Source: Tubiluchus corallicola
Taxonomy: Eukaryota > Animalia > Priapulida
Assembly: GCA_030141605.1 (NCBI GenBank)
Contig: JAQGDQ010000013.1
Span: forward strand, 448,447 to 512,446
Reading direction: 5' to 3'
Length of the DNA: 64,000 nt
Positions 12,721 to 55,017 of the stretch are shown here, piece by piece. Position 1 is the stretch's first letter, and every line of letters starts with the position of its first letter. The translations under genes and the position numbers were made by a program. Below the pieces are notes generated by a model, which was not told where the DNA came from, did no database searches, and saw nothing but the letters and a program-made list of their open reading frames with translations.

Positions 12721-15700
12721 TTATGAGGTTTTTCCTTGTTTTGCTGCTTGATGAGCTTGCTGCATTCGTTGTAGTAAAGCTGGATCGAGTGCAACTCTGG
12801 AAATGATGTTTCTTTCTGCTACAAACTCTCCAACTGGAGACTTGGTGTTAGGAGGCAACAGTGCAAGGTACAACGGAGTATCCGCACCTAAATAATGATT
12901 TATTATAAGTGTTAACTTTCAAAAAACAATAACCCATTTTACAGTTCCAGCGATTGACGATGATTGTGAAAGGATCAAAGGTTAAGTGTACCAGACAATA
13001 CGTACAGTTAACGCCTTGCAGCCCAAGCTACTGCAACAGTAACAGTCTTAACAGCTAGCTAGAACCTTACCTACATTTTTTTCTTGTTTGCAAGCAAAAT
13101 CTTGCTTATTAAATCACTCTATGCACAGACTAATGCATATTTAAGTAAAGTCTACCTAAAACAACTGAAGTTACTGAACTGACGTATACGTGGCTTTAGC
13201 CACACATCAAGTCATGGTTTTAGTTAAGAGGCATTGCCATGATGCACTTAACATTTGACCTACAGCAACTGCGCATGTGCACAACGAAACCGTGAAATGG
13301 CTTATTCAGCATTCATACTTTCAATATACAACAAATGCTTACAGTGAGCAAATGAGCACGTTCATGAACATAAAATAAACAATGGACCTTATGCTTTAGC
13401 CAATGGTCTTTCATTTAGCCTTGATAACTAAATGATGACAAGCAACAGCAGACATAAAAATTTCTGTATTTTGTAACTCGCAACTAAGCTCACAAGTGCC
13501 AAGAAGCAATGGCTTACCTTTTTTGCAAATGCAAAATGTATTAACAAAATAGTACTCATCATCAGAAACTTATTAATATATCAGCACTGAATCTCAAACA
13601 CCCAATCTTTATACGAATTTACTCAAATGGTCGTAATATTAACGCTGGACAAACTAAGCATCTTGGTAAGTGATACAAAATGTCAAAACTTTTAGCCGTA
13701 TATAAAAATCTACTGATCTTGTTCTTAGATTGAGACAGGTTACAGCATATTATAATTGCTGATGCATATTATAATTATTAACACAAAATACAAAATAACC
13801 ATTTTATACACATCAACACGTACAGCTAGTTAATTACCTTCGTCAATTGTTTTATGCCCTTTGCCATGTGTCATATCTGTGTCGACATATCCTGGACAGC
13901 ACTATTAAAAATAAGAAAAAAACTGATTCAATCTTAGTTCATCACATTACACAAACAATAAGATCTGCAACCCACTGTGCACTGTTGGCACCCTTCTGTC
14001 TCGGAAGACAATGGAATGTGTGCCAAGAGAGTCCGGTCCTTGAACGTCTCCAGGGAGCACGCCTGGGCAAGGTGTATGGAGATCCTGAGTTGCCCAGACC
14101 ACAGGAACCCCCTCTCTTCCTCCCTGGTGTAGTCCAAAGGAAAGCGGAGCGATACATTTGGCACCAGGTTGGCTGCAGGAGCTGCCGGAGTCAGTGGGCA
14201 TGCTGCACTGGTCCGCCTTCGGGGCTCCGCTCCTGATTTGGAAGGTTTACTCCTCTACACATGGCCGTTGGGTCACTTGATCTCTTCCGCCCTCTAGCCG
14301 TTGGCTGCTTGTACAGCTCCTCCGCCTAGTGTCGAGATACAGTGTGGGCATCCCGCAAGCCTACAGCACCTGGTATGCCTAGGTGGTCACCCATCCAAGC
14401 ACTAATCAGGCTCTATGTTGCTTAACTTCAGTGATCAGACGAGAACCGGTGTTTTCAACGTGATTTGGCCGTAGTATTGTGCACTAGCCTTACATTTTCG
14501 AGATACAGACAGCAGCTGCAGAGTATAATCAATGGTTTAAAAATTGCTTAAAATGTGTCGTGGTGCCTTTTTTATGCGCTTGCTCTGCTTAGTGGGGTGG
14601 TATTGAAATTTACTTACAGCATTTACGATGATATCTTTGCGGGAATCTTTTTGCAGCTCACGAGCGTGTATCACAGTGAGTGCAGTCATGAAAACTTTCG
14701 ACATTCCATAAGAGGTCATCTTCCATCCATTTTCTTTCTGTTTTCCATCTTTCACGTCTCTGTGAGGAAAAAGAGATAACAATGGCAACCCACTTACATG
14801 TAAAACATTGTCGTCATTTGTTTACGTCGTAAATATTATCAAACAGTTTTAAAACGTGTATGAAACAATAATTGTGATACCTCAGGCACTCAAGATTTAA
14901 GATCTTGATGAGCTTAGTCAGTATATCAGACCTGCAAATACTCCTCATGCATTAGGAATGTGCCACAGTTTTTAAGTTTTTCATGCGTGCACATGCATCA
15001 ACATTCTCACGCATTTCTGCGAAATTAACAAGCAAGTTTGTGAAATCACCTTGCTTCCTTCATCATAAGTACCAACCAGAAATTCACAACACAGTTAGTA
15101 GTGCAGCTGAGGTACTATTGTGCTTTTCTTGTATGTACATAAAACACACATATATATTTTTGGTGGTATTCATTTACCCCTTCGACCCTGCCAAAGGCAA
15201 GATCATCACCGAGCTTTCTATGATCCACACTAACTTGTTCATCAAATGATTGGCAGGTCTGGTATAAGTTCTTTGTTGCTATGCGCAATACAACACTCAA
15301 ACCATCAATTATCGTATTTGGAGTGCAACAGTCTAAGCAAAGTATACCATAAACACACAAAAGATCAACTTTTAGGTGATGATAAGGCAGAAATTTCACA
15401 CAAATTAACAAGGTTTGAGTGTAAACTCATCTAGCAATCACATCCTGTCTCTTCTGGCATCAATTTTCCTGGAAATTAAGACTATGTTTACTTTCTTAAT
15501 ATTAAACTGTACCTACGAACCTTAGATAGTTCACATTTTTGACTGTCTCATGACTTTCACCCACAATCTTAGTAAATTCAGTAAAAAAAACACATTTTCG
15601 ACACTTACTGCACAAACTGATTTGCAAGGTTTACTAAAGTTTCCTCATAGAGATCAGGTGAGAGAAGCTGATGTCTAACCTTCTCATTTGTTAGTTCATC

Positions 15701-16356
15701 AAGAGTTCCAGCTCTGCTTGACACATTCACAACCCTACGAAAAGGAAACGTTCAAAATTATGCAAAAGTATCATAAAGTAGAATAACAAATAAATCTGTG
15801 AAATTCTTACTATCTTACTATTCTTAAGTATCAATACTAAATTAAATGTACGCAAAACTGATATTAAGAATAAAAATTAATATTTTTGTCAAACAGTAAG
15901 ATACAAATGATCAGCATATATTTGATATCTGCACTGCCACAGGTACTACTTATACACAGTTCATAGGGCCCTACGTATTTAAAATGAGAAACATAAAACT
16001 AAAATGGACTAAGCCAAATTTCTAAATTAAATAGAATTTTTGTTAATTTTGGGCTATACACAGCAGTATGTAATAAAATTTTGTTTTCTTATTACATGGC
16101 ATTTTACGAACAATTTTATATATCAAATTTGTTTATAAAATGTATATTAAAGGCCAAGAAAAGGGGAAAGGAAGCAGGTTTCAGAAAAAAAACACCTTAA
16201 GAAATTACATTACTTTATAGCAATTTTAATGCATATATTGTGTTAAAAGGAATTTTTGTTTGTTTTCATCTTAAATCTCCTGCAATACTGTTCGGACGGC
16301 GTCATTACAAGATGTCAGCTACACAAACGTAAATCAGGGGAAGAAAAGGCCCCCTG

Positions 16357-16392
<36 letters not shown>

Positions 16393-19300
16393 TGTCCCAA
16401 AACCGTTCCATGCAAATCTATATTACTTAGCATTTTGCTTACCTGCTGGAAAGACTTATGTAACTAGAAATAATAATTTAAAATGTTTGGTAATTGGTAA
16501 AATGTTGCTGGCTCTCACCCACCCTCTGGGGTACGCCATTCACTAACCAAAAACGTATTTTTAATCTTATTGACTGGACACAGTAATGTAAAAATTTACT
16601 TACGAAGTAACATGTGTGCTACACATGCTTTGATTATTTTTTCAAACTTCATGCCATGTTATCTAAGTTAGTTAAAAATAACTTACCATTAAAATGGCTG
16701 CACCTAACAGTCGTACGGGGTTTAACTTTACAAGTTTTATACAGCATTACTGCTGACACAAGCCCTGCATGCAAAAAGGCAGCATGCAAGTGGTACAAAA
16801 TTTCAAGACGAATTTTCAAGCTTTATGTAAGTGGAGCGTTTTCTTGTGCTTTAACCCTTTCACTATGTTGTTGCTTTTTAACTGGGCCACATTGACTTCT
16901 GCACATTTGACAATAACTTCTTGTGATGTGTTACTAAAACACGATCTTGTTAATAAACAGATAGTTGTTCATTATTGAGTACTAATATTAAATATTTGTT
17001 TTATTTCTGCACATGCACACACATGCGAGTACACATACATGCATTCACACACATACACACACGCACACACAATCATAAATAACTTATATTTGGAAACCAG
17101 TTTTCACAAAAGACACAATACTAATCCATAATATGCAATCATTTTATGAGAATGTAGAACAATCAACTAAACATACATTTCATCAACGATCTACAAGTGA
17201 CTTTGTGTGGGAACGTATCATAAAATACAAAATTGTGAAATGCACCTGGCTTCAGACATTGATTGGCTGGTTAGTGCTACTTAGCAACCCCAATCTCACG
17301 GTTGTTAGACTTTTCTACAATGTTTTGCATGGCTGTAGCAGTGAAATAAACAGACCTGGGTGACTGTGCTTAGTGCTGAACTTGGGCGGCAGTCTACCGC
17401 TTTCAGTCCCTTACATGAAAAACATAAGTGGCAGTGTACCGCCTTCCGTAGTGAAAAGGGGTAAGTTTTACTAGTATGAATCTAAAAAGTGTGCAGTTTT
17501 CATTTCTTACACTGATACAAAACACAGGCAATAACAGACAAAACAATGCTTTAACTAATTAAGTAACGGAAGTGGTGCTGACAAGCCACTGGCGTAGCAT
17601 TGTTTAGTTTTTTGCTGTATTACTGCTGCATTTACCTGTCTGAAGGCAGATTTCTTTTATTTTGAATTCTGCCTGCCCAATGTCTACAATAGACGTGATG
17701 GACGTATGATGATGATGAATTAAGTATAGTTTAGTACTGGCTCATCTATATTAGACAGCACCAGAAATGCCCACCTTGAATGAGGACGAAGTAATGGAAA
17801 AAGTGCTTTGCACACATTCAAAGTCCCGAAAGTGTTGATATTTATGGTCACCTCTGCTTGTTCCGCTGCAGGCACAGTCGAGTCCATCTGAAATTAACAT
17901 AAAAGACAACAACACATTTTATTCTTCCTAGTTCCTAGAGATCCCGAGTAACTCAATGATCTTTAAGCTGTCGCTTTTTAAGCTTTCAAGTTGGTCGATT
18001 ACGAAAGAAGTATTAAAAACCAATAAAGAAAAAGTCTATGACAGTAGGGCTAGGAAAATAAAAAAAACTTAATGGAATCCATAAAATATTATCTGGGGGT
18101 TGGCATTTTGATACAAGTTTTCGTACGTTATATGCAAACCCGGCATTGTTTACTAAAATGTCTAAGCCACCATATTTTTCCAATAAAAATTTCTTCAGAC
18201 GTTCAATGCTTTCTTTGTCCTCTATGTCAAGTTGATGGAACTTTGGTTTTAATCCTTCTTTGTTTAAATTTTCTACTGCAGTTTCGCCACGTGACTCATC
18301 TCGAGCTGCAAGAGAAAACAAGAATTTTTAAAGGCAACAGTAAACACTTTTAACAGTTCGTTCAGATAAGTAAGTTTTCTTGCGAAGTAACTGACAGACT
18401 AGAGAGGAAAACTTGCTGCGAGTACTCTCCATTCACTGTTAGAAGTGTTAAGAGTAACTCACAGACTAGAGAGGAAAACTTGCTGCGAGTTACTCTCCAC
18501 TCACTGCTAGAAGTGTTAAGAGTAACTCACAGACTAGAGAGGAAAACTTGCTGCGAGTTACTCTCTATTCACTGTTAGAAGTATAAAGAGTAATTCACAG
18601 ACTAGAGAGGAAAACTTGTCGCAACTGTCGGAGAATTAGCAATAACTTGCCAACAGTAACTCGTAAAGCAATTCACATTTGTGAGTTTGCTGTCAGAGAA
18701 AAATCTCACTGCAGAATACACGCAACTCTGAACTTCTAATGTAGTCTTGCTAGTCTCAAAGCCAGTTTTTACTAAAAGAACTTTTTGCAGGTGAAACTTT
18801 TTAGTTGTCAGCAATACCTGATGGACTTTTCATTGTATTTAATGAATCAATGAGTCAAACAATTTAATAATGAATAATTACTTTATTGACTCATAAGAAC
18901 GCACCATAAGTAGGTAGTTAACTAAATTACCTGTTAAAAACACGTCACCATCAAACTGTTTGCACAGGCCTCGAACAATTGCATAACCTATTCCTTTGTT
19001 TGAACCTGTAACCTGTGAAACAAACATCAATGTATAAAAAAACTGTTAGCCAACAATCTTTCATTTTTGAGAAATATAGTTTTATTTGCTAGAAATGCTA
19101 TACAACTGCTCCTCATATTACAAATTGCAGTTAGTTTTTTTTCCAAATCACAATCGAATCACAGCATTGTGCTTACATACACTTTGATACGGCTTTTGCT
19201 TATTCTGGTGTCATAAATATCAAGAAAAACACAGAAATACTGAAAATAGGGACGCCCATTTTTTCATTAACCTCCTTTATAATGGTTCATGGTTTTATAT

Positions 19301-19866
19301 ATAAAGACTCCTACTCCAGCTAAGCACTTGTGTATACATTTAAATAATATTATTGAAAAAAGTATTTAAAGATGCTAGCAGAGTAAGCAAGTCGAACTCT
19401 GCCATTGCATTGTTTTATTAGTTCAAAAAGTATATTAGCAACTTTGGTGCCAGATTTGATGGAGGCAAAACCTACATCATCTAATGTTTCAATGTAAATT
19501 CGTAAGTCGCATTAATAGAGAAAACTTTGCACACATTTTACAACACCGGATGTTAATTATGTTAACTTCTCGTGATAAACTGATTTTAATTAACTTTGCT
19601 AATATCTTGTGAGATTTTCTTCTCTAACCTAACGGTATTAATTAATTTTAGAAAATTGTTATTAATGTCAGTTAAGAAGGTAATGATAATACAATGCTAG
19701 CATAGCTATTGTAAGTTGTTAAAATTTATGACATTTAAATACTGTTAACTGTTATAGCCCTACAAATAGAGGGCGCATATATATATATATATGTATATGT
19801 TCATATGCTTAAAGTAAAGAGTTATGATAATAATGATAATTAGCAACTTACCACTGCCGCTTTCAT
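12721..19866 (-). CDS. CBR1: Carbonyl reductase [NADPH] 1-like SDR, paralog A (295 aa, C-terminally extended)
   Basis: Eight exons on minus: 19866-19852, 19012-18931, 18305-18127, 17887-17775, 15734-15609, 14759-14618, 13901-13838, 12887-12721 (888 nt including TAA). All GT-AG and in frame. Motifs VTGSNKGIG, DILVNNAG, RVVNVSS, YGMSK (YxxxK), CCPGYVDTDM and GADTPLYLALLP are typical of CBR1. Confidence 0.95.
13984..14477 (-). mobile_element. 5S rRNA-derived SINE (SINE3) with an RTE-type body, in intron 6 of CBR paralog A
   Basis: A 120-nt 5S-like head (14476-14357) runs without an oligo-T terminator into a GC-rich body of about 370 nt ending ccattgtcttccgagacagaagggtgccaac. 8-bp TSD TGTGCACT at 13976-13983 and 14478-14485. 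Confidence 0.85.
14357..14476 (-). rRNA. 5S rRNA-like sequence (SINE head or pseudogene, not a bona fide 5S gene)
   Basis: Minus strand reads TACTACGGCCAAATCACGTTGAAAACACCGGTTCTCGTCTGATCACTGAAGTTAAGCAACATAGAGCCTGATTAGTGCTTGGATGGGTGACCACCTAGGCATACCAGGTGCTGTAGGCTT. This is a full-length invertebrate-type 5S with A/IE/C boxes and several CpG-type transitions. It is single-copy here and lacks a T4 terminator. Confidence 0.75.
16151..16350. mobile_element. Kolobok-like family 2 fragment
   Basis: TTAA|AGG terminus; similar to the reverse complement of 700-891 and to 63094-63294. Confidence 0.55.
18387..18620. repeat. Tandem repeat with a 67-68 bp unit, about 3.3 copies
   Basis: acagactagagaggaaaacttg recurs at 18394, 18461, 18529 and 18597. 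Confidence 0.95.
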
Positions 19867-20243
19867 TTTAAATTAGTGCCTTGATTTGAAGTTTCGGCTT
19901 CAATTGCAATTATAAAGCTGCAGGTAGCTGTACAAAGACCGGACGGAACTTGTAAAAGTCAAGATTTATTCAAGCAACGTACAGCAAGTGAATTCACAGT
20001 GCTGTTAATCAATTCTTGTTACAAAATTAGTAATCTAAACCTCCATGCACATTAAACAGAATTAGACAAAGAAAAAGAACCTTTACCAAACGACTGGCGT
20101 GCTTTCACGCTCTCACTGGGCTGTGATCATTGATTTTGTCATTCTACATTGCCAGGTTACAGGACAACATGCAGAAAATAGCTGAGTCATTGTTGACTGT
20201 AGCAGAATCCAGGGGCTGTTATACACTGCATGTAGGTCACAGT

Positions 20244-20514
20244 GTAGTCAAAATGGTCTATTGATGCGCAACTGGCTAGGCTGTATTGGCCGAAAAGGAA
20301 GCAGATTGCGTCAGCCTTCCCTGCCCCACACTTCGGTGTGTGATAGCCTCTTATAGACAAGTCCTACACAGTGCCTCCCCGTGGCGACATACGGGCAACT
20401 GGGTACCTTGCACCCCCAGGCTGAACTGTGAGGGCTCGGAGGAGGTCAGCCCCAAGAGGTGCGGTATGCATGCCCGCCGGCGTGCGGACATGCCCTGGTA
20501 CCCACTAACTTGAC
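20244..20514 (+). ncRNA. Candidate HDV-like (nested double pseudoknot) self-cleaving ribozyme
   Basis: P3 GCC 20373-20375, L3 TCCCCGT, P3' GGC, P1' GACATAC, then GGGCAAC (as in genomic HDV). P4 TGGGTACC 20400-20407 pairs with GGTACCCA 20497-20504, followed by J4/2 CTAA. The element 5' end (GT)GTAGTC pairs with P1' with a single bulge. P2 is imperfect. Confidence 0.6.
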
Positions 20515-20889
20515 CCCCAGCTATGGGCAAATAGCCTCACTGCCTTGTGAGTATGCACTAGGGATAGTGAAAGGCTAAGGGAAACAACCCCGACAGAAAT
20601 ATCGGAGTGGAGCCCCGTAGGCAGGTTGACAAGATCACCGATCATCTTCCTGGCAACTTCTGCAACCAAGCTGATGCCAGATGTATTGCTCTGCATACCT
20701 CTGGACAACATCAGGGCGGTCAAGAGGGGGGGTCTTGACGTTCGGGCAGCCCAGGATCTCCATAGTTTTCGCCTAAGCATTGCGTCATGGAGAGGACACT
20801 CGGCTCTACAGCCACAGCAGACGCTGCTCCAGCTCCTCTTTATGGTGCAACCCATCGTCTTCATAGACGGACGGAGGCCGACGACGACG
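20244..20889 (+). mobile_element. Non-autonomous bipartite RTE-type retroelement with a candidate 5' HDV-like ribozyme
   Basis: GC-rich island with a 10-bp TSD AGGTCACAGT (20234-20243, 20890-20899), an RTE-like 5'-UTR block (ggagtggagccc...gccagatgtattgctctgc...gggcagcccaggatctccata) and a 3' tail cccatcgtcttc...gac(gac)n. No credible ORF. Confidence 0.8.
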
Positions 20890-22902
20890 AGGTCACAGTT
20901 CAGTGTTCACCAGTCAGTGTGGTCACTTGTCAACGACGTAAGCGATACTAATTTCATTTTTGAACACATTTACCAAGTTTTTTTTGTATTTCTATTACAA
21001 GTTCCGAGGGCATATTAATCAACAGGCTAACAAGGCTATAGCCTAGGGCGCCAAAGTTTCATGGGTGCCGCAATTTTAGAAAAAATCTTATTTTACTTGG
21101 AAAATGTGTATACTCTCATATTCATGTAAAAGGCGCATTTTATAACACACCACAAGCAGTTATGGAGAACAGGTTATCAATAAATACCATATAACCAACA
21201 GGTGCAAGGTATTGGCCGAGTTATACTAAGGACTTTAAAAATGGTACCTGTTGTTGCCCTGCCAAACGCGTCGTATTTAGAGCAAAAGTGGGATAATAAT
21301 AGTCTCTGTTATGTAGTTGTAGATTGTTGTTTATAGTCGGCCCAAAAGCTCTTTGGAGCTTATGTTAATTGTTGATCCAAAAAGCCTTTTTTAATAGTTA
21401 CCATGACACAGAGTGAGCCTATCCAGGGCACTGTTTAAGGGAAAGCGTGACTGAGGTGTCTATTAGGAGTTTTTAAAGAGAAGTTGCGTTCCGTTCTTGA
21501 AATGTGAGATACAAGCTGAATGGCTAAAACCCTCACAGGAAAACTTAGCCAGCAGAAATTCAGCAACACTAAGCTTTATCAGTAACGAATGGATGACTGC
21601 CTCCGTGGTGTTACTCTGGGTTAAACTATCAAAGGTCCTGCTAGGTACGTCTATCAGACTCCTGTTTCTATGCTACATTTATGAATAAATATATTTTCAA
21701 CTTTGGGACTGGAATGTTATAACTGTTTAGTGCCTGAGATTGAGCGCTCATTCGGTGTTGTTCCTGTCTTTAGATAATAATCGATGGTGACTTTAACACA
21801 GTCATCATCACAGCAGTCTTTATTTACTGTTTATAAAGCAAACCAGCCAGATGCAGAAATAGTTTCTGGAAGCTTTAAAAGGTTCTGAATTCACTGCAAA
21901 TTGTTTTATTACCAGTGTTTAAAGGTATGTACGAAAGTCACGGGTGAAGTACTACAACAGCATAAGTATTAACACATAAAATGTCACTCAATTTTGTTAA
22001 ATCTTACAGTATATGCTGCAAACAGGCCCATTCACCTTTTTCATTGGTAGTGATATTTTAAAAATGGATATGGAGCTTACGAGACAATGTGATACTAGGA
22101 AGTACTGTTGCAACATTGTTCAAAGGGGTACCGAATGGTTGAATACATTCGAGAGAGGTAAGATGCACTATTGGCGGTATGGAACTCTTAAGTACAGTTA
22201 AAATGTCTAAGAGTTTGTGACAAAACTATTATGATTATAATAAACAGTGGCTATATTTCATTTCAGTATGACATAATTAAGTAAAAGTAATTATTAACAT
22301 TAATATCATTTAACTATAATAGTTATTATGTACTCACCAAAGAAATGTCATACTTGTTTTCAAGTCAGTTTGCTAATTGGATAATTGGCAATGAAAAAAG
22401 GGAGAGGTAGAGAGAGAGAAGGGAGTTCAAAGAAATTTGAACAACACGGTGGCATAATCATAGATAATACAAGTTTTGTAACTGTGTTTTAGAAATTTCA
22501 CATTTATTCATCAAATTTCTGTTCAAAAGTTAAAAGCTTTCAATAAATTTCCACATGCACGTGTATGGTAATTCCTGTAACACAATTCTTCAAACAAGTC
22601 ATAGTAAATATTACATAATTTCCGCAATTTTTTTGCCAATTATTATTGATGCCATAGCACTTGAAGAAGCGAGAAAATCAATCAGACAGAAATATATTCA
22701 ATAACAATATCCAACATATTAAACGAAGTTATTTTCTGCTTCCAAAAGAAATGATTCTTTTGCTAAAAAACTAAAAGAAATCTTATAAGCTGAATAAGAA
22801 AACAGATAAGACTTCTTATAGCACAAAGTCATGTACAATATGATAAATTCAATCAGAAAATATGTGAGAAAATAATTTTTAGAGATTTCAAAACAACAAT
22901 AA

Positions 22903-23445: not shown

Positions 23446-24739
23446 TTATTTTACCAATCCAGTAGTACAGTAGTAATAATTATTCTAGCAATAGTAACAT
23501 TTGATCTGTCAAAACATGATCTTATAATTTCAAGGCGGCCATAAAAATGAGTATTTATTTCCAGACTCTGACTTGAGGAAACACATATCATTAGCTTCTA
23601 TCACTTATAATCATTACAATTGAGTGCAGAAAATGCAGTGATGTACACCACACGATAATAAGCTGTTTATATAACATAGAAACCATTACCATCATCCACG
23701 ACTAACTAAAGAAAAAGTTACAGGTTATCCATTGAGATTTAACTGCACAAAAGCAGCAAGGCCCATTTCACAGTGAGGAAGCAAGGAAAATTCACAGAAT
23801 TTTACGAAATTTTTGTCAGTAAATCAGAAAATTATCTGAATTTTTTCAAAATCCCATGCAGTAAGAAAGTTCACTTCACAGCGAAACTGTGCGGCCAGTT
23901 AGCTGTAGCGACTTTGCGAGTTTTATACTGTATAACTACATCTAAGTATGAGTTATACTTGCCGCATTTCTCATATACAAAGTACATGTAATATGTAATG
24001 TCAGACCTGTTGGTTTTTTAGTAAAGTTCTACTAACCACTTCAAAACCTGAAGATATACATATATATAATAAATATATGCCTTTATTTGTAACTTTGGAC
24101 ACCACCCAAATTGGTACGAGAGAAGTTAAATATACATTACATAATCTTTAGATGCAGAAAACTCAACCGGGTTTTGAAATTTGATACGAGTTAATTAAGT
24201 TAAGCAATTTAAGTTACCAAATATTTAGGTAGACTCGACTACAGCAAATGAATTTTTTTGATAGAACTAACCGCACATTTTCTTATAGCGCATCAGCATC
24301 ATTTCTACAATTTTCAGGCAGAAAATGTAAGTGCACATCAGCAGTTTTATCCTCTCACCAAGCACTACACGTGCAGAGTTCTACTCAGTCTACTGAAAAA
24401 TCAACAAAAAAACTTAAGGAAACACATTGTTCTGCAAAGCTATGGGCAAAACTTGCTCGTTTTATTACATGCCGATCAATGTTGCATAAGCCTGTGTGTC
24501 GCGTTTTTTCAAAACATCCCCATGCAATCACGTCATTATAACCGTTTAGCTTCTTTAGCTACCTTTAACCAGCACAAGTAAATACAAATCACATCAAAAT
24601 ACTAGATTATAATCACTAAAGTACAAATTTTACACTTAGCGCAGACTTCTATAAAGATCATTATCTAACTCACAAAATGTTAAGGTCCCATAAGATTCAC
24701 AAACATTCACCGGTTTCTCCCTTCCACCCTCAGCAGATT

Positions 24740-27700
24740 TCAGAATCCACGTTGAGCCCAGGAAATGATTTTTCTTTCTCCAACGAACTCGCCAACAGGT
24801 GACTTTGTGTTCGGAGGCAGCAGTGCAAGGTACAATGGTGTGTCTCCACCTAAACAAATTTTTAATTCAATGCTACATTGTCTGACCTAAAGTAATGCGG
24901 GGACATAATAGTCACATAAATTTCTACAGATAATAGGAACGATATGGATATTATTAGTGTTGTGTTTTGTTTCTCTTGGAAGGCTCGTAGAGAAAACCAG
25001 AAAACACGTCGTCAAATTAAACTAGTTTATTATGTGAGAATTCTACAACACAAAAGTATGAAGGAACGCGAAATGTATACAGTAAATGTGATAATCTGGA
25101 AACATAAAAGCGTATCTGAGAATATGAGAATACGAGGATACAAGAGAATGTGAGAGAAAATCAGAGAGTGTACTTCAGCGGCCAGCTCCGTCTTATATAT
25201 CAGTGCCAGGGAATTAACTGGAAAGTTCTAGAATCTTTTACAAGAAACTTCGTCAAGGTAAGAAGATTGTTCTACTATACAATGGAATATTCCAGAATAA
25301 ACTCCACAACAATTAGCGGAGTATTTTCTATGCTAGACCGAACAGCATCTTGAGAAAGAAATTTTGTCATTGTTCGAGTAGCGTTAAAACTCATTTGTTC
25401 AGTTTGTATTATAATTCATTCTATGGTACAGCAACATGGCAGCATTTTCACAATTATAGCTTAACTAAACTTAAAGCAAAACCAGAAAAGTCATGGAAAT
25501 TTATTTAAAAAATCTGTGGGAACCCTGAAGTAAATGGGTCTCTACTGGTAAATGTCGCCTCCATTGAATTATTTAGACAACGATTAATGAAAATTAACTT
25601 TTCAACACATTCGTAGTCTTGCAGACTTATGTAATTAGTAATTTAACTCTTTGTGGTTTTTTTAAATCAGTTACCGACAAGCATATTATTTTAAACCGTT
25701 CCAATCATTCTGTTGTTCATTTCATGGTTGCTCAATTTTTATTTTTTCTTATAAATGTATAAATATTGTAGACAGTTGAATTTAGAGAAGTTTTCTCTGA
25801 GTATTGTCGCTACTGAATAATAATCATGTTAGTATGACCCACTGTATTGCTGAAATTACACCTTTTATAAACCTAGCAGCTAAACAACCCCAAACATTGC
25901 ATAGAAAGATTAGCAGCTTGTCAATCAATCTGTTTCATACAATGTGTATTTTAAATCAGTATTCAAGTTTAAGAACACTTGTTTATCGTATCCTGTATAA
26001 TGCATTAGATTTTACGAATGATCATTATAGTGATTGTGATATTGTCTCCTATGTTTTAAATTAGACTGCTCGCAATGAAATTCACATATCCAGCTTTATT
26101 AATGAAGAAGTAATATCTACATTACTAACCGTTTTAACTAATTGAATGTATAAATTACTTACGTTTTGTTACTGTTACATATCATATTCTTATTATTGTA
26201 ATATGCATGTAAACTGATATTTATATGCGAATAAACATAGCAAATATATTCAATCGTTTAGTCAAAAATGGGCACTATTACGTTTTTACGTTACTCATCG
26301 GTTTAATTACCTTCGTCGATTGTTTTGTGCCCTTTACCACTTGTCATATCTGTGTTGACGTATCCAGGACAGCACTGGAAAAAATAGTACAAAGGCTTGT
26401 TTAATAAATATTCATTACTTTCATTCATCTTGTACAGCAATAGGGGAGATCAGTGGTGTGATGTCAGCTACCAAGTGCAGATACAACATCCATGAAAGGA
26501 CAAATCTGGGACAACTGCTCATTCAATATTTGGAAGGAGTTTACAATAGTCACACAACTTAAATACCGTAATCCATATTCTAACTCTAACCTTAATCCGC
26601 TTCACGAACTAAGTTCTTGTCCCACACACAAGAAATTAGTTTGTGAAGCAGATTAGAGTTAGGGCTAGGGTCAGCGTAAACTTAGAGTCAAATTGTAAAC
26701 TTAAGCAGAATATTTTAGCGAATTTTTGTATTTTCGTCCGCGCATCAGTACTAAGTAAAGCTAATATATATAATAAAGCAAAAGAATTTAATCATAATAT
26801 TGTATCTCTGCTTTTAACATTGATTCAGCTTTGTATTGTAATGACATCAGAATATTTATCTACTCCGAGCTTTAAAGTTAAAATAATGTCACTTAATTCA
26901 GTCATAACATTAAAAATAGCACCAAGAAATTAGATCAACTTTGCTAATTTGTTCATAATGTCTGATTAATTTCAATGTTTTGCACAAAAGTTCCCTTATT
27001 CTTACTAAGTAACAATCACTTTCAATGTATTTTTACCCAATACAGTCAGGTGTTTACATTTTTAAAGCACTTTTATTCACAATACTCGCAAAAATATTAA
27101 GTATTCACAACCAGTTTAGTTATCATAATACTCTAGGGTCCAATTAAGAAGTAAAAAGTGACATAATAAAAGCTACTTACAGCATTCAGGACGATGTCTT
27201 CACGTGAATCTTTCTTCAACTCACGTGCATGCACCAAACTCAATGCCGTCATAAACACTTTTGACATTCCGTAACAGGTCATCTTCCATCCATTTTCTTT
27301 CTGCTTTCCATTTTTCACATCTCTGTGAGGATTAAGAAAAAAGTAAACATTGTCAAAATGAAGAAAAGATCTGATGCTGTTTTATAGCAATTCAGTACCT
27401 AAACCGATTGAATACACTACTTGTGTGAGATTTTGTGGCGATTCTGTTACAGAAAGAAGTAACATAGTCTATAGTAACATAGTTATAAAGTCTTTTTACT
27501 GTTCTTTACACTTTAGAGTTAAGAAACTTATTTTCATAGTACACTTAGCTTGAATTATTCAGATCCGTGCACTGGTTGCTGAAACTTCAACTTCTAGGTA
27601 ACCAGTGAGTCTATAAGTTAGTCACCCAATCAGTCAGTTACTCGTAAACCAAAATAAGCGAGAAATAAACACATAAGACAATAAAATACTTTCACTTAGT

Positions 27701-30299
27701 GCACTGTTGTTAAACAACTTGTTTAAATTAGCCAAACATTCAACAAATGAACGAACTCCTAATACGACACATCAACTGTTAAAACATTAACAATTATAAA
27801 TAACAGAGCTTACTGTACAAATTGATTTGCGAGGTTTATAACGGTCTCCTCTGTAAGATCAGGCGAAAGAAGCTGCTTTCTAACTTTCTCATTTGTGAGA
27901 CCATCAAGAGTTCCAGCTCTGCTCGACACATTCACTACTCTGAGAAACAAAATTTTCCAATCACAAAACAAACAATGAATCTTCTACTATTCACAAACTA
28001 TAGGTGTGTCATATTAAACTATTTTCACATTAAATTTGCTTCATACAAATGGGCGAGGAGCTAAAGTCCTATACAATGTCCAGGGGTGCATCAAGACTTT
28101 ACGACGCCCTAGCTGCTAGTTCTGTCCCAACCATCTCTATTCTGAATTTATGGTTATTTATATAACAAGCGGATTGAACAATTACTTGTGGTGTATTAAA
28201 TACACTTGACCTAGTTTCTACGTGATCATTATTAATTACATATATTTGCATAGCACTTATATTCAAGCAGGCTGTGCAAATGCTTGTTATGTAATACTTT
28301 GCACCTGTTTGTTACGTGGTAATTATATAAAACCAGCAATCAGTAACTGTTTTTAAGCACTAAATGTTTTTTATCATACGATTCACTTTAAATTTTCAGA
28401 ATATTTCTATTACTTTTTTTCTTTCACTGTGTGGGACAATCTAACAAGCCCTGCTTTTTAATTGCCCGCAACACATTTACATTTGTATATAGGTGAACAG
28501 TGTGTGAGGTTTTTCTTGTGCAGAAACAATAAAAGCTTATTTGTATTATGTTCATTGTAGGCCCTTTCACTATATATTGTACGTGAAACTATTGTAAATG
28601 TGTAATTGTGAAATAAATGACTTATGACTTAGTCAATGCACTTATGACTTAGTGAATGCACTGCCTGTGGTATGTTATAAAATGCGTCCTTTACATGAAT
28701 ATGAAAGTACACACATTTTCAGAGGAGAATAAGAGTTTTTTCCAAAATGTGACACCCTCAAACTCTGGCCCCTAGACTATAGCCTAGTTAGCCTATTGGT
28801 TTATACGTCTCTGACAATGTCTTGTACTATAACTGAAAACAATTATAAAAAATATGTACTAATGCAAAATATTTGCAGGGGTATCTAAATGCACGATTTT
28901 CAAACAGTTAGTCAATGCCAAGAATTTATGATGATGCTTCTAGTCTTGGAAATTTGTACCTTGCATGGGGACGAAGTAGAGGAAAGATCGCTTTGCACAC
29001 ATTTAAAGTACCAAACGTATTGATTCTTATAGTAACTTCCGCTTGTTCAGACATGGGCTCAGTCGCAGCCATCTGAAATAATCAAAGTGGCTTGATAAAA
29101 AAGTCTCTAGCTATTTAACCGTTCTTTCCTCCACTACAATGTTGACTTCAGTTCATCCAGGTTCATACTGGACAAAGCTTGAAAAGCTTATACACACAAT
29201 TCAACAGAAGAGTCAGCCAGAAACAAACTTCAGTTCAATTCAAGTCCACGTGTTTGGCCACTGGACAGGTCTGGGCAATGTTTTTACAGCTAAATATTTT
29301 TACAAAATAATGAAACTAAATGGTTTTCATAAAAACTAACTTCAGTATTAAACATTAATACTCCGAAGAACAATAATTAGTGATGCAGCAAAAAATTGTG
29401 GTTTATTTAAAATATTTATTTAATACTTAAAATAGTTAAAAAACACAACTTCATTAAAACTTTTATGTACTTTAAAAAATTGCAATCATGCCAAACATTT
29501 GGCATTTTAAAATAAAAGTTTTAATAAAGTTGCGATGTTTTTAATTATAGTTGTTTTTGATTGCCTATAATAAAAATTGAGTTGGATTATTTAAAATGCA
29601 ATTTATCTACATATCTATCAGTGAGTTATTAATTATATTTCAAAAAATTTGATGAAAAAAGGGTTTGCAGTTTGTGAAGATGTAAGTTAAATTTCTAAAT
29701 TAATGTGTATAGTGATGAAATAGTTTACCTTATATGCAAACCCGGCATTGTTTACTAAAACATCTATGCCACCATATTTCTCTAATAAGAACTTCTTCAG
29801 TCGTTCAATGCTTTCTTTGTCCTCGATGTCAAGTTGATGAAATTTTGGTTTCAATCCTTCCTTATTTAGATCTTCTACTGCGGTTTTGCCACGTGACTCA
29901 TCTCTTGCTGTAAGAGAAAGAAGAATATTTAATATTGGTATGCTCTTTTAACTATTCAATTCAACTAACTACTAAATAAATTGATTTAGCAATAAACAAG
30001 TACATATGCATTACGGGTAACAATTTTTTGTTAATACAACAAAATTAGGATTTAATTCATGAATTCTGCGCTAGAGACCTAAGAAACTAGGTTATGTTAG
30101 ACCACTAGGATTAGCAGTGAGAAAAATAAGAACATATTACTAATAATTAGTGTGAGTTACAGTGGGCATTACTAGTATTTCATAATTACGATATAAACTG
30201 ATGGTAGGTACAGAGAAATGATAAATGTTTTAACACATTCACTAAGCATTTGGGGAAGAGACAGCACTTGATTGGACTAGATATGGAGGTGTGCACTGC

Positions 30300-30335
<36 letters not shown>

Positions 30336-31923
30336 GTGGAAACTAATATCTATATTATTATCCTAAAGGGAAAGTTTTTGAAAATGAAAGCCAACAAGCC
30401 ATGATTGAGTGATCAGTGATTATGTTTCAAGTAAGTGTAATTTATGTACTTTTTTGAATGTGTTCTTACACATTGTGTCTTTTCATCTATCGATACGGAA
30501 ACACTTTTCAAACATATTCAAAGGAGGAGCAGCGAATTTGCAATTATGTGGGTCGTATGCTGCACAACATTTGATGTTTCACAACAGAACTGAACAGATT
30601 TAACTGACGCTTGTGGTTGCAAAGCTTGTATAATATTGTAATTTACTTTCGGTATGTAGCGTGAATTTGATTTCAATGTAATTTTATTGTATTTTATGAT
30701 GTACTGCACCTTTGATACGAAATAAAGAGAAATAAATAATATAAACTTTGTCCCCTGATGCAGTTCCATGCATGTTACTCGGACATGTTTGTGTAGGAGT
30801 CTCACACTTTTGGAGTGGCACACCAAATAGGTATTCCATTTTATTTTCCTCTGATGGTTACATGAAGCCAAAGAAGCCAATTTTAACAAATAAAATTGTA
30901 ATTTCCTCTTAGTTGATCAAAAACTCTTTGTTCCCCGTAAATTAAATGAAATTGATTTTAGATGCTCTTATGGCTATTTTTTACAATAAAATATATTTCA
31001 TATGTGTACAGTAGTTGTAGCCACGAAGAAACCTGAAAACCTCAAAAGCTCAGTGGTGTTACAGATCTATGTTTATAATGCTTTTAAGCGCTTAAAGACA
31101 ATCGTTGTTTATTGTAAAAGAGATTTATTTTGTAATACTAACATTTTAAAAGCTGCCTGTTTTCAATGAACGAACTGAATGAGGAATTTGAATTTAATCG
31201 CGCACCATCCTAGTAGGCTTCCTAAAAATCTCTTGACAACTGATGTCACCTACATCATTTATAATATCCAATTACTAATAAAGTAATACTGTTTATAGCA
31301 TTGGTGTCACCATTTCTTAAATTAATATTGAACTAACAGCAGCCAGTGTTCCTCTAATTTACATTTAAAACTTTTACAGAAATTATTATACATTAATGAA
31401 TGGAAAATTTTTTATCTAAAGCCAATTCAATACCAAAAACTGTAAAAAAAAATCACCTGTTAAGAACACATCACCATCAAACTGTTTGCACAGGCCTCGG
31501 ACAATCGCATATCCTATTCCTTTGTTTGAACCTGTAACCTGTTGATAATGAACTGTGTAAGCAATTATTAATGCACGAAAACAATTTTGTATGTACAGCA
31601 ATACAACGTAATCCAAGAAATGAACTAGTAACAAGACGGTGCAAGTTCAGGGAGAAATTTCTTAATAAAACAATATAAGACCACGCGGCAAAATGCCAAT
31701 GATATGATATTAAGTAAAAAAGTTTGTTTTCTGTCTGCTAAAGCTTAAGATCATGCCACGGTCAAGTTTTCAAAAACCTATGGCTATGCGCATGTGGAAG
31801 ATTTTTTTAGATTAATAAAGTTTCAGAATACAGAGTTACAACAGTATGAAAGGCGAAAACAATAACAATTCTCTCTTTTCGTCAAACTAATTTTTAATAT
31901 ATACTAACCACTGCCACTTTCAT
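24740..31923 (-). CDS. CBR1: Carbonyl reductase [NADPH] 1-like SDR, paralog B (276 aa)
   Basis: Eight exons on minus: 31923-31909, 31538-31457, 29907-29729, 29072-28960, 27939-27814, 27322-27181, 26374-26311, 24849-24740 (831 nt including TGA). Exon sizes 1-7 are identical to paralog A and the SDR motifs are the same. Ends ...GEFVGERKIISWAQRGF*. Confidence 0.95.
26540..26700. repeat. Palindromic (fold-back) element
   Basis: A near-perfect stem of about 35 bp (26586-26620 / 26628-26662) with a 7-nt loop, plus an outer pair gtttacaat / attgtaaac. Confidence 0.8.
28081..28813. mobile_element. hAT-like non-autonomous DNA transposon in intron 4 of CBR paralog B
   Basis: Perfect 8-bp TSD ACAATGTC (28073-28080, 28814-28821) and imperfect TIR caggggtgcat / atacgtctctg. 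A related terminus lies at about 21006-21052. Confidence 0.8.
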
Positions 31924-34098
31924 TTTATAGCGTGAAACGGAAAAAATTGATAATCGCAGCCCACTAAATTATTTAACAGAAATTTAACAGCACGTGCAGC
32001 AACAATAGCGGACACCTTTTCAGTAAAGTTTCAAGAAGAGCCGGGGCCGGTTCGCAAAGTCGTTGCATTCATGTACATCCCGAGAAGTCTATGACACCTG
32101 TCGTGTGTGGTGTTAATGCGCGTCCGGTCTAATGCGCGGCTTTTGCATACCCAACACCCATACATCATTGCATTATTATCAGTGTAATACTGTAATCGTA
32201 AAAATACGCTGATGAGCTTCTATCGGGTTGCCTAGTTTTTGATCTTTGATGACCAACATGAAAACTTTTCCGTTTTGTAATGGATAAAAGTCTGAATAAC
32301 AAGCATTAATTTTGAATTTTCGCAACAGCATCACAATGAAAAACTACCAGACGGAATTGTTGAGTCTATTTCTTTTTTGGTGGAAACACCTGATAAAAAT
32401 TATATCGGTAGGTAAAGAATTTCGTAAGCTTTGCAACCCAATCACATATAAAATGATAAATTTTGGCTCTACAGTTTCTTGCAATAATTGCTAAAACTAG
32501 AGATCTGTGTGCATTAAGACGAACACTGTAGCTGGTAGATAATAGATGAATTTTGTTTATTATTTTAACTACACTGATGTTTATTTTTATATTCAGTGTA
32601 GACAAGAATGCTTCTACCTTCAAAAGTAAAACCACAGTAGGATCTAAAAGATACATATGCGGATAGCACATATTAAAGAAGTTACTATGAACAAAAATTA
32701 CAATAGATAGTGGGACAGTAATTTAATTATCAAGTTTTGCTGGGCTAATCACTGATGAAAAATAATCATTGCTATAATTATTTCAGTTCAATTTAGCTTC
32801 AGCCTAAGATAAGACAAGATTGCACAGACATATATATATATATAGAGAGAGAGAGCAACCATTTGCGTACATTGATAACGTTATTCCACTCAGAGTTCTT
32901 ATATCCTACTATTAATTACACATTGTACTTAGTGAAAGAGTTAACTAATGGTTTCTCATTCATCTAACAAAATTACTGATAACAATGAGTATACACTTTG
33001 TCCGAACGAGAACTTTTTTGCTACCATTTTGCTTTGATTGGTATCAAAAACCCAAGGTACAGTTTTCTGCAAATGAATGTTGTCTTCATTCCTATCATTG
33101 TTGTAACTTCAGTCAAAGTTTAATTGGGACCACAGTCTAACAGAAGAAAAAAAGCACCAGCAGTTTCATTGCTTGGGCAATGAAAATGGCAAAATAGTCC
33201 AACAACCTAACTGTAGCTACAGATTTTCATACTACTAGATCAAGCGTGCATGTATCTGTATTTGTGCAGAAAAATGCAAATGAACATACTTGTCTTTCTA
33301 ATGCCACCGCAGTTCGATTTAATCTGGACTTACTTCTTTTTGTTTCTCCACTAACTGCAAGGCTAATTTTCTCAGGCCCTTACTCAATAACTTATTGAAT
33401 TGTATGTGCTGCACCTACCTTTATCACCATCTCCAGATCCCCTGCCAACATTTTTATCACTGGCTTCTTCTTTGTCATCTTATTTTACAATTTTTATAGT
33501 TATGTTGCTTATGCTATAGTTTAACTTCTAGGCAGCTAGCGACAACAAGCTTAGCAAAAGAATGCATAAGTTATATAGAAAATAGGAATTTTGTTTTCTA
33601 TCAAAGTATCGATTGAGAGAAATGTGAGAGTATGTGCATGATGTCTTTTTATTTATTGTTATTGTCAGCGTTTAATATTTATTTTACTTTTACTACTAGG
33701 CTACTAATTTTTTTTAACTGAACCACACATGTAACTTGAGTGTATATGTGTGTTCGAAAACAAATTATGTTAATAATACATAGCTTCTTCAAAGAATATG
33801 GACCAAAGACTATGGACCACAGAATATGGACCAGGGTTCACCTTTTCCTATACTTTGGCTTGTTCCTCATATTTTATTTTGAACTGAATTAAAAACTACT
33901 TTAGTAAACATGTTAAATTGAAAGATTTATGTTTTTACTCGTCGCTGCTGTCTGCAACCTGCGGTCTTCAAAGTGGAAAGTAGGAGTGTCTAGTTTTTTG
34001 CTGGATCAGTGTTATGTTTACTTGTCTTGAGGACGAAATTCGTTTATTCTAGAATACTGTCTACCCAATGTTTACAATAGAGAAAGGATCTTTTCTCA

Positions 34099-53476: not shown

Positions 53477-54210
53477 TTAAATGCTTTGAGTTCACAGACT
53501 GCTTTTTTCATTTAGAAAAACGCCAGAAAAATTGCATTACTAGTAATTATTGCAAAGGCGTATTTGTAGTATTTAGAAAGTTAGAAAAATCGGTTATATT
53601 TTTTGTAACCGCTGTGAGTCCTCATGTCTGAGTGCAGTAGTTATCCGCTAGCTCTTTAAACACATAAAAACAAAAACAAAGATTCCCGCTTTTACCACTT
53701 TTCACCATGTAGGCAATTATTGCTTATTTTGAGCGCTGTCTCAGAGTTTATTAAATTATCAGAGAATATTTTAAAAACTTGATTCCTAGTTGTTTACGGA
53801 TAATTAATGGCTGTCCCGCCTCTTCCGATGCGACGTGCGGCATGGCGGTTGGTGAATGTGTGACGCTCTGTCCTCCCCCTAGTGTGACTCAGTTTGCTAA
53901 TTGAATATTAATGGTGTCATCTCTCCTCCTCCTGTTCATTGAAAGCGGGCGTCTCATCTCGTGCCGGGAGTTTTCACTTCTCCCGCATGGTAATGAGTTG
54001 TTAAATATTATTTTTACGTTTGCCGGAAAATCTAAATAATACGCTCCTGTTTCCCAGGCTTCCTCGCCAATTAACTGCTTTGTGGTGGAAATTTATTCTG
54101 AAAAAATAAAGCCGTTTCACATGTCATGATGATAGATGCGACAGTTCTTTTCTCTGTCTTATCTTTTATCATTTTCTCACAGTCAAAACCATTGTCTTAG
54201 TTTGTTAACT

Positions 54211-55017
54211 TTTCTCCTGATCATAGAGAAGTACTTAGTAAAGTATTCCTATGTACAATATTGCGTGATCTCTCCTGATGATAGAGAGTACTTAGTTTGT
54301 GTAATCTCTCCTGATCATAGAGAGTACTTAGTAAAGTATTCCTATGTACAATATTGCGTGATCTCTCCTGATGATAGAGAGTACTTAGTTTGTGTAATCT
54401 CTCCTGTTCATAGAGAGTACTTAGTAAAGTATTCCTATGTACAATATTGCGTGATCTCTCCTGATGATAGAGAGTACTTAGTTTGTGTAATCTCTCCTGA
54501 TGATAGAGAGTACTTAGTAAAGTATTCCTATGTACAATATTGCGTGATCTCTCCTGATTATAGAGAATACTTAGTAAAGTATTCCTATGTACAATATTGC
54601 GTGATCTCTCCTGATGATAGAGAGTACTTAGTTTGTGTGATCTCTCGTGATGATAGAGAGTACTTAGTAAAGTATTCCTATGTACAATATTGCGTGATCT
54701 CTCCTTATGATAGAGAGTACTTAGTAAAGTATTCCTGTGTACAATATTGTGTAATCTCTCCTGATGATAGAGAGTACTTAGTTTGTGTAATCTCTCCTGA
54801 TGATAGAGACTTAGTAAAGTATTCTTATGTACAATATTGTGTGATCTCTCCTGATGATAGAGAGTACTTAGTGAAGTATTCCTATGTACAATATTGCGTG
54901 ATCTCTCCTGATGATAGAGAGTACTTAGTAAAGTATTCCTATGTACAATATTGTGTGATCTCTCCTGATGATAGAGAGTACTTAGTAAAGTATTCCTATG
55001 TACAATATTGCGTGATA
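54211..55017. repeat. Composite minisatellite of 57-bp and 36-bp units
   Basis: The long unit atctctcctgatgatagagagtacttagtaaagtattcctatgtacaatattgcgtg alternates with the short unit atctctcctgatgatagagagtacttagtttgtgta, then long units only toward the 3' end. Confidence 0.97.

What the first reader, a model, noticed from the sequence alone, without database searches (positions are those of the whole stretch)
20244..20514. Candidate HDV-like self-cleaving ribozyme whose predicted cut site coincides with the insertion boundary
Seen: GCC-TCCCCGT-GGC-GACATAC-GGGCAAC-TGGGTACC...GGTACCCA-CTAA follows the P3-L3-P3'-P1'-GG(P1.1)-P4-J4/2 order of HDV-like ribozymes, including a candidate catalytic C at 20505. 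The 5' P1 partner (GT)GTAGTC lies at the first bases after the TSD, separated by a J1/2 of about 115 nt. P4 holds a long branched insert with ggctga/tcagcc and gcatgcccgc/gcggacatgc hairpins. P1 has a bulge and P2 (CACAGT vs ACTTG) is imperfect, so this copy may be impaired. Inference: co-transcriptional cleavage defines the element's 5' end.
Basis: partly seen in the sequence, partly recalled or inferred. Interest (0 to 1): 0.7.

Follow-up and report, generated by a model that had tools for sequence, protein, structure and literature searches.

The report
Ribozyme-headed shortened RTE retrotransposon
A 646-base repeated element, likely a shortened jumping gene of the RTE type, begins with a compact hepatitis-delta-type RNA fold that is predicted to cut it free at its first base; this is a known design, and the predicted catalytic base is C20421, not the C20505 first proposed.

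Summary
GG-C20421-UGA followed by ACUGUG pairs perfectly with CACAGU 20367-72, so P4 is short (20399-20419), P2 is intact, the predicted catalytic base is C20421 and the fold ends near 20430. The long P4, C20505 and 'imperfect P2' are a minor rival fold. The fold heads a 646-nt non-coding insertion (20244-20889) with a 10-bp TSD and (GAC)n tail; contigs show other copies and a splice of two parts at 20801/20802, and it holds an RTE 5'-UTR motif quoted by Kojima 2018. It is likely a bipartite non-autonomous RTE element. P1 at the boundary is bulged, a rival P1 lies at 20336, and own-family P1 letters could not be read, so the cut site and this copy's activity are inferred; no cleavage is shown. 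Ribozymes at RTE 5' ends and bipartite RTE derivatives are in print, and this scan noted the same kind before on other DNA (75 word-matched findings, at least 15 genomes). New member of a known kind; the useful result is the corrected control mutant.

The parts
20234..20243 (+). left target-site duplication (10 bp)
   Evidence: same 10-mer at 20890-20899
20244..20889 (+). non-coding repeated element, likely bipartite non-autonomous RTE derivative (646 nt)
   Evidence: between the TSD copies; GC 0.50 against about 0.31-0.38 around it; other copies in contigs of runs X1-X3; no Pfam match for its two longest frames
20244..20249 (+). P1 5' strand; predicted cut between 20243 and 20244 (or 20241/20242 if two target bases are borrowed)
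   Evidence: 6 bp with one bulge, -2.3 kcal/mol; from 20242 7 bp with one bulge, -3.4; ideal 7-bp partner -7.2
20250..20366 (+). J1/2, 117 nt, predicted structured; holds a rival P1 at 20336-20341
   Evidence: 20339-20401 matches a profile of an unrelated-looking comparator family, nhmmer E 1.8e-5 (part 2)
20367..20372 (+). P2 5' strand (extendable by 20363-65 after a bulge)
   Evidence: 6 of 6 Watson-Crick pairs with 20425-30; -6.1, extended -10.1 kcal/mol
20373..20394 (+). P3 (20373-75/20383-85), L3 20376-82, P1' 20386-92, P1.1 GG 20393-94
   Evidence: sequence; same core pattern in 61 public loci; Rfam RF02682 alignment
20399..20419 (+). short P4 hairpin
   Evidence: pair probability of G20402 with 20414 or 20416 sums to 0.82-0.95 in four fold windows, with 20502 0.003-0.12 in the three that include it
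20420..20424 (+). J4/2, predicted catalytic C20421
20425..20430 (+). P2 3' strand; end of the compact fold (20433 with the extension)
   Evidence: no GG before C20505, P2 duplex 0.0 kcal/mol; register found in 1 of 42 public cores
20514..20534 (+). conserved RTE 5'-UTR (Ceph-domain 3' half) motif
   Evidence: 19 of 22 aligned columns identical to the 23-mer printed in PMC5786205; 0 of 2000 shuffled motifs score as well on the element, 4 of 200 on the whole window
20601..20816 (+). body shared with the 5S rRNA-headed element at 14477-13984 (-)
   Evidence: blastn 78% over 114 nt, E 1.9e-19; longer local alignment (part 3)
20780..20850 (+). junction of the two halves at 20801/20802, enclosed by a predicted 17-bp stem (20780-96 with 20834-50) that covers an ATG at 20787
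   Evidence: contigs leave the window after 20801 and join it at 20802 with other letters; stem -22.4 kcal/mol, 20 of 2000 shuffles as good
20852..20889 (+). 3' hairpin and (GAC)n tail
   Evidence: other copies end at 20884-20890 and run into A-rich flanks
20890..20899 (+). right target-site duplication

Best explanation
The stretch is the 5' end of a 646-base repeated, non-coding insertion, likely an internally deleted RTE-type retrotransposon, and its first 187 bases are predicted to fold as a compact HDV-like ribozyme (short P4, C20421 in J4/2) that would cut the RNA just before G20244. Mechanism, inferred: the element has no Pol III head, so it would be transcribed from a neighbouring promoter; self-cleavage would trim the host sequence; the protein of an intact RTE relative would bind the 3' hairpin and (GAC)n tail and insert a copy by target-primed reverse transcription, leaving the TSD and a 5' end at P1. 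Shown: core, perfect P2, J4/2 register, TSD, tail, other copies, two-part junction. Inferred: cleavage, cut site, RTE identity of the helper, transcription. This copy may be slow or dead (about even odds): bulged P1, a rival P1 at 20336 and an 18-bp helix between its flank and J1/2.
For: Only C20421 of 9 candidates gives a contiguous P2. Descriptor: 1 hit in the window, 1 of 200 shuffled windows, 0 of 5000 shuffled elements; with the core fixed and the downstream 201 nt shuffled, 87 of 5000 give such a P2. 30 of 42 distinct public cores have two bases between P4 and the C, as C20421 does; 1 of 42 has the C directly after P4, as C20505 would. Rfam RF02682 aligns 20361-20433 in the same register. 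A minority form carries T20404C with A20412G, a U-A to C-G change in the short P4. In a comparator family from public metagenomes 7 distinct flanks all stop at or within about 3 nt of a 7-nt P1 followed by AAATG, and the window also has 7 nt before AAATG. A second insertion in run X1 joins at 20243 with another flank. RTE motif, 10-bp TSD, deeper cover of the tail than the body. Papers: cleavage maps to the first base of P1 (PMC4908430); RTE has 5' ribozymes and makes bipartite derivatives (PMC5786205, PMC3774820).
Against: No Rfam family reaches its gathering score; RF02682 scores 23.9 bits against 44, E 0.047. P1 is bulged and weak, and P1 mismatches went with lost activity in R2 and other cases (PMC3774820). 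The best single duplex for P1' in the 466 nt upstream is at 20336, not at the boundary; constrained folding favours the boundary by 3 kcal/mol without flank but the 20336 site by 3-4 kcal/mol with 15 nt of flank. The nested minimum-energy fold of 20244-20520 is no more stable than shuffles (z 0.38) and does not form P3. The long P4 helix alone is stronger (-13.1) than the short hairpin (-5.2). No autonomous RTE was seen: no genome is held. The descriptor was written after the fact and passes only 16-19 of 61 public cores.
Confidence: 0.85

Rival explanations
1. One reading: long branched P4 closed by 20400-07/20497-504, catalytic C20505, imperfect P2.
For: 8-bp helix of -13.1 kcal/mol; CTAA follows it.
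Against: P2 duplex 0.0 kcal/mol, pair probability 0.003-0.12; no GG before the C; register seen in 1 of 42 public cores against 30 of 42; it buries the canonical J4/2 in a hairpin.
Confidence: 0.03
2. The core is a real ribozyme but in this copy P1' pairs with 20336-20341, so the cut falls 92 nt inside the element and does not mark the boundary.
For: Best duplex in the upstream scan, -5.5 against -5.1 and -4.0; favoured when 15 nt of flank are included.
Against: Its first pair position is G-C but the seventh is a G-G mismatch; the strand also lies in a UUCG hairpin or in the flank helix; some copies have T20341C there; copies in X1 and X3 carry the upstream 85-92 nt; comparator family starts at the distal P1.
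Confidence: 0.07
3. Decayed relic: the family once had an active ribozyme, but the bulged P1 is fixed in this sublineage and its 5' ends are now set by a promoter or by inheritance of the parent's end.
For: A second insertion in X1 matches 20243-20314 with 2 other letters and no gap, so the bulged P1 may be shared; P1 defects abolished activity in other elements (PMC3774820).
Against: Core, P2 and J4/2 show no damaging variants in the dominant contigs; 4 of 7 comparator insertions also have imperfect P1; contig break points suggest other copies differ at 20250 (letters not seen).
Confidence: 0.35
4. Chance motif in a GC-rich repeat.
For: Below Rfam gathering score.
Against: 0 of 5000 shuffled elements and 1 of 200 shuffled windows pass the descriptor; same core in 61 public loci, many with complete folds.
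Confidence: 0.02

Closest known systems
[quoted passage not shown]
   Same: nested P1-P2-P3-P1.1-P4 order, catalytic C in J4/2, long structured J1/2, extended P2, P1 at the element's 5' end
   Different: P1 here has a bulge; activity untested; no sequence identity to drz-Agam-2-1 was tested
Bipartite ORF-absent non-autonomous RTE LINEs such as RTE-N2_Lch, RTESINE, Bov-A (Kojima 2018, PMC5786205, parts 1-3 of 5 read)
   Same: 5' UTR part joined to the 3' end, no long ORF, microsatellite tail, TSD, conserved RTE 5'-UTR motif, keeps the extreme 5' end
   Different: parent element not assembled here; the junction seems to keep five codons after an ATG and the last codons of a frame rather than UTR only
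R2 SIDEs (Eickbush and Eickbush 2012, PMC3414825, abstract read)
   Same: 5' HDV-like ribozyme plus 3' end of the parent, moved by the parent's protein
   Different: SIDEs insert in 28S rDNA; this copy lies between two carbonyl-reductase-like genes and has an RTE-type tail
Rfam RF02682 HDV-F-prausnitzii
   Same: core, short P4 and GG-C-U-R-A register align over the whole model
   Different: 23.9 bits against a gathering score of 44; 117-nt J1/2; animal retroposon context

Membership tests
HDV-like ribozymes | P3 (3 bp) closing L3 with U...G and two C for P1.1, followed by P1' and GG | tested here: met
   20373-20394
HDV-like ribozymes | P2 of at least 5 bp stacked on P3 (PMC3774820) | tested here: met
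   6 of 6 Watson-Crick pairs 20367-72/20425-30
HDV-like ribozymes | catalytic C in J4/2 after P4 | tested here: met
   C20421 in the register of 30 of 42 public cores; C20505 is not
HDV-like ribozymes | P1 of 6-7 bp starting at the cut site | tested here: inconclusive
   6 bp plus bulge from 20244, 7 bp plus bulge from 20242, rival at 20336; own-family letters not seen
HDV-like ribozymes | covariation across copies of the family | tested here: inconclusive
   one compensatory pair in short P4 and two wobble-keeping changes in a minority form; too few variants; P1 covaries only in the comparator family
HDV-like ribozymes | Mg2+-dependent self-cleavage lost on C-to-U change (PMC10879173) | not testable with these tools
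   bench assay needed
Rfam RF02682 | gathering score 44 bits | tested here: not met
   23.9 bits; not filed as a member of this Rfam family
Bipartite non-autonomous RTE LINE | TSD and short 3' end with simple repeat (PMC2887409, PMC5786205) | tested here: met
   10-bp TSD, (GAC)n
Bipartite non-autonomous RTE LINE | no reverse-transcriptase ORF; two parts joined | tested here: met
   no Pfam hit; contigs break at 20801/20802
Bipartite non-autonomous RTE LINE | 5' part similar to an RTE 5' UTR | tested here: met
   23-mer motif match at 20514-34; 0 of 2000 on the element, 4 of 200 on the window; one short motif only
Bipartite non-autonomous RTE LINE | both parts align to an autonomous RTE of the same genome | not testable with these tools
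   no genome held; only 20-25 loose letters seen
SINE with Pol III head (SINE2, SINE3) | tRNA- or 5S-derived head | tested here: not met
   Rfam finds 5S only at 14358-14476; tRNA scan not run separately
Non-LTR retrozyme (tandem ribozyme repeat) | tandem units each with a ribozyme (definition recalled) | tested here: not met
   one descriptor hit in 64 kb; single unit between TSDs

The most novel reading that the evidence does not exclude
The element's RNA uses base pairing beyond self-cleavage: an 18-nt stretch of the ribozyme's J1/2 (20334-20351) pairs without a break with the target DNA strand 6-23 nt upstream of the TSD (20211-20228) and would act as a guide for insertion, while a 17-bp stem that joins the start-codon region to the 3' end would fix where internal deletions fall. 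An RNA-guided target choice by an RTE-type LINE would be new. The helix is longer than in any of 2106 other 60-mers of the window, but it is one post-hoc case, unremarkable by energy (15 of 2106; 135 of 2000 shuffles) and absent in 7 of 7 comparator insertions.
Probability: 0.03. Interest if true: 0.8.

Novelty: new member of a known kind. Interest (0 to 1): 0.2.

Why it matters
As a kind it is known: RTE elements carry 5' HDV-like ribozymes and spawn bipartite derivatives. The value here is practical: the corrected fold changes the construct (end at about 20434) and the control (C20421U). The window also holds a neat natural pair: two parasites that share one body, one headed by a ribozyme and one by 5S rRNA without the ribozyme, as Kojima 2018 argued should be the case. 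The copy sits 378 bp upstream of a carbonyl-reductase-like start codon on the other strand, so it would not cut that mRNA.

Tried and rejected
No whole genome is held, so copies could not be counted or aligned. No RNA holder listed; run X6 laid nothing: no evidence on expression either way. The letters of other copies at 20244-20250 were not obtained, so the family's P1 stays open. blastn of the element against the 61 public loci found nothing at E 1e-3; no look-alike in earlier scan windows. The descriptor counts part 1 are void (pattern bug mis-parsed L3; it missed the window itself); one search is the corrected run. MAFFT did not align the 3' halves of the public cores, so no covariance model was built. 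Ruminski 2011 and Webb 2009 are not held. A paper search for an RTE C-terminal motif gave nothing useful; the likeness of the tail frame RLYSHSRRC to RTE protein ends is recalled, not tested. Rfam int-alpA match at 20274-20325 (20.6 bits, E 0.13) taken as chance. Pairing of the flank CACAGU with P2' has probability 0.0. No supplements were read; ribozyme tables in those of the unheld papers could list a close relative.

Full report
Observation. GTAGTC at 20244-49 follows a 10-bp direct repeat (20234-43) that recurs at 20890-99 behind a (GAC)n run; no neighbouring offset gives more than 4 matching bases. The insertion is 20244-20889. No Rfam family reaches its gathering score here; in E-value mode RF02682 (HDV ribozyme) aligns over its whole model to 20361-20433 at 23.9 bits, gathering score 44, E 0.047.

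The 3' half was mis-assigned. The Rfam alignment already puts the J4/2 at GGCUGA 20419-24. Of 9 C-N-R-A sites in the 200 nt after the core, only C20421 is followed by a strand that pairs contiguously with the bases next to P3: 6 of 6 Watson-Crick pairs; C20505 gives 0. In nested ensembles the short P4 dominates (G20402 with 20414 or 20416: 0.82-0.95 summed) and the long P4 has 0.003-0.12, though the isolated long helix is the stronger (-13.1 against -5.2). These ensembles cannot hold the pseudoknot, do not form P3, and the whole stretch is no more stable than shuffles, so they speak only to P2 and P4.

Outside test of the register. A pattern for the core found 3 viral and 58 metagenome loci; 19 of the 61 were dropped as duplicates. 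Of the 42 distinct cores, 30 have P4 of at least 3 bp, two bases (mostly GG), the C, and P2 of at least 4 bp; 1 has the C directly after P4; 12 fit the first rule not at all. C20421 is in the common register, C20505 in the rare one. A descriptor written after the fact finds exactly one site in the window, C20421; 1 of 200 shuffled windows and 0 of 5000 shuffled elements pass (3 of 200 and 1 of 5000 with slack); with the core fixed and the downstream 201 nt shuffled, 87 of 5000 give a 6-bp P2. It is strict: 16-19 of 61 public cores pass. The first run of it (part 1) had a bug and is void.

P1 and the cut site. P1' pairs with 20244-49 as 6 bp with a bulge (-2.3) or with 20242-49 as 7 bp with a bulge (-3.4); a perfect partner would give -7.2. 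The best duplex in the 466 nt upstream is at 20336 (-5.5), the boundary is second (-5.1). Constrained folding prefers the boundary by 3 kcal/mol without flank and the internal site by 3-4 with 15 nt of flank. Support for the boundary is comparative. I picked by eye 15 of the public loci that form one repeat family of about 950 nt; 14 hold the 5' end, with 7 distinct flanks, and all 7 diverge at or within about 3 nt of a 7-nt P1 followed by AAATG; P1 is perfect in 3 of 7 and covaries with P1'. The window has 7 bases before AAATG too, and a profile of that family matches 20339-20401 (E 1.8e-5, mostly the core that the loci were selected for; part 2). In run X1 a second insertion joins at 20243 with another flank, 2 other letters and no gap; the locus contig ends at 20280 and an X3 contig starts to match at 20251, which suggests that some copies differ at 20250. 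Their letters were not seen, so whether the family has a perfect P1 is open. PMC4908430 places the cut at the first base of P1; PMC3774820 reports P1 of 6-7 bp, J1/2 of 23 to over 700 nt, and loss of activity with P1 mismatches.

The element. Contigs of three runs (two samples, two studies; one may be the window's source) cover the body several times deeper than the 5' flank (884-1087 against 170 in X1; 67 against 5.5 in X3) and the tail deeper still; the tool warns that depth is no copy number. The dominant contigs leave the window after 20801 and others join at 20802 with different letters, so this copy is likely two parts spliced together; no listed contig bridges the joint (277 pieces were not shown). 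By eye the loose letters keep open the frame from the ATG at 20787 and the tail frame RLYSHSRRC; that this resembles RTE protein ends is recalled. The 23-mer that Kojima 2018 prints for the conserved RTE 5'-UTR domain matches 20514-34 at 19 of 22 columns (0 of 2000 shuffled motifs on the element, 4 of 200 on the whole window). No frame matches Pfam. Kojima describes such bipartite RTE derivatives and notes that they keep the ribozyme end while RNA-headed SINEs drop it. The window shows both: a 5S rRNA-headed element at 14477-13984 (-), with an 8-bp TSD, shares the body (78% over 114 nt, E 1.9e-19) and a similar tail hairpin but not the ribozyme.

A lead from earlier scan notes was that such junctions sit inside an end-joining stem. 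Here a 17-bp stem (20780-96 with 20834-50, -22.4 kcal/mol, 20 of 2000 shuffles as good) encloses the joint. Of four tail variants that fall in it, two turn G-U into G-C, one keeps a wobble and one (T20837A, in all laid contigs) breaks a pair.

Context. Two tandem short-chain dehydrogenase genes with spliceosomal introns lie on the minus strand (adh_short; exons; likeness to carbonyl reductase recalled). The element lies between them, 378 bp upstream of the likely ATG at 19866 and on the other strand, so it would not cut their mRNAs; transcription from a divergent promoter is a guess. Its flank 20211-28 pairs over 18 contiguous positions (5 G-U) with J1/2 20334-51: 0 of 2106 window 60-mers reach that length (maximum 17), but 15 of 2106 and 135 of 2000 shuffles match the energy, and 0 of 7 comparator insertions show an excess. 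It crosses P1 and would likely hinder this copy in a read-through transcript.

Papers seen: PMC3774820 parts 1-5 of 7; PMC5786205 parts 1-3 of 5 and passages; PMC4908430 part 1 of 4 (62); passages of PMC6765202, PMC10879173, PMC2887409; abstract of PMC3414825; Ruminski 2011 and Webb 2009 not held. Six searches were run; I make no claim that this family is absent from Repbase, which I could not search.

Verdict. A compact HDV-like fold with predicted catalytic C20421 heading a likely bipartite RTE derivative (0.85); activity of this copy about even. New member of a known kind, interest 0.2.

Noticed in passing
window 14477-13984 (-): 5S rRNA-headed SINE3-like element (Rfam 5S 90.9 bits) with 8-bp TSD, in an intron of the left SDR gene; shares its body and tail design with the ribozyme-headed element but lacks the ribozyme.
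   Followed up: partly
window 20238-20243, 20367-20372, 13976-13983 region: The TSD ends in the same six letters as the P2 5' strand, and the right flank of the 5S element also reads CACAGT; possible target preference or chance (two cases).
   Followed up: no
window 20211-20228 with 20334-20351: 18 contiguous WC/G-U pairs between the upstream flank and J1/2; unusual by length, not by energy; absent in the comparator family.
   Followed up: partly
window 12740-19866 and 24700-31930 (-): Two tandem SDR (carbonyl-reductase-like) paralogues with matching exon structure.
   Followed up: partly
window 21008-21160 and 28660-28805: Very high-depth short repeat just right of the element (depth up to 41,640 in X1), likely a MITE-type family.
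   Followed up: no
window 54196-55016: Tandem repeat with open frames of 294 and 269 aa on both strands; only weak Pfam matches below cut-off.
   Followed up: no
L010, L011, L025, L030, L031, L034, L052: A separate non-coding repeat family of about 950 nt headed by an HDV-like fold with 118-147 nt between P1 and P3 and covarying P1; 3' end and TSDs not examined.
   Followed up: partly
L015, L019, L022, L037, L053, L054, L059, L060: AT-rich repeat family with a compact HDV-like fold in its interior (conserved sequence continues upstream of P1), unlike a 5'-end ribozyme.
   Followed up: no
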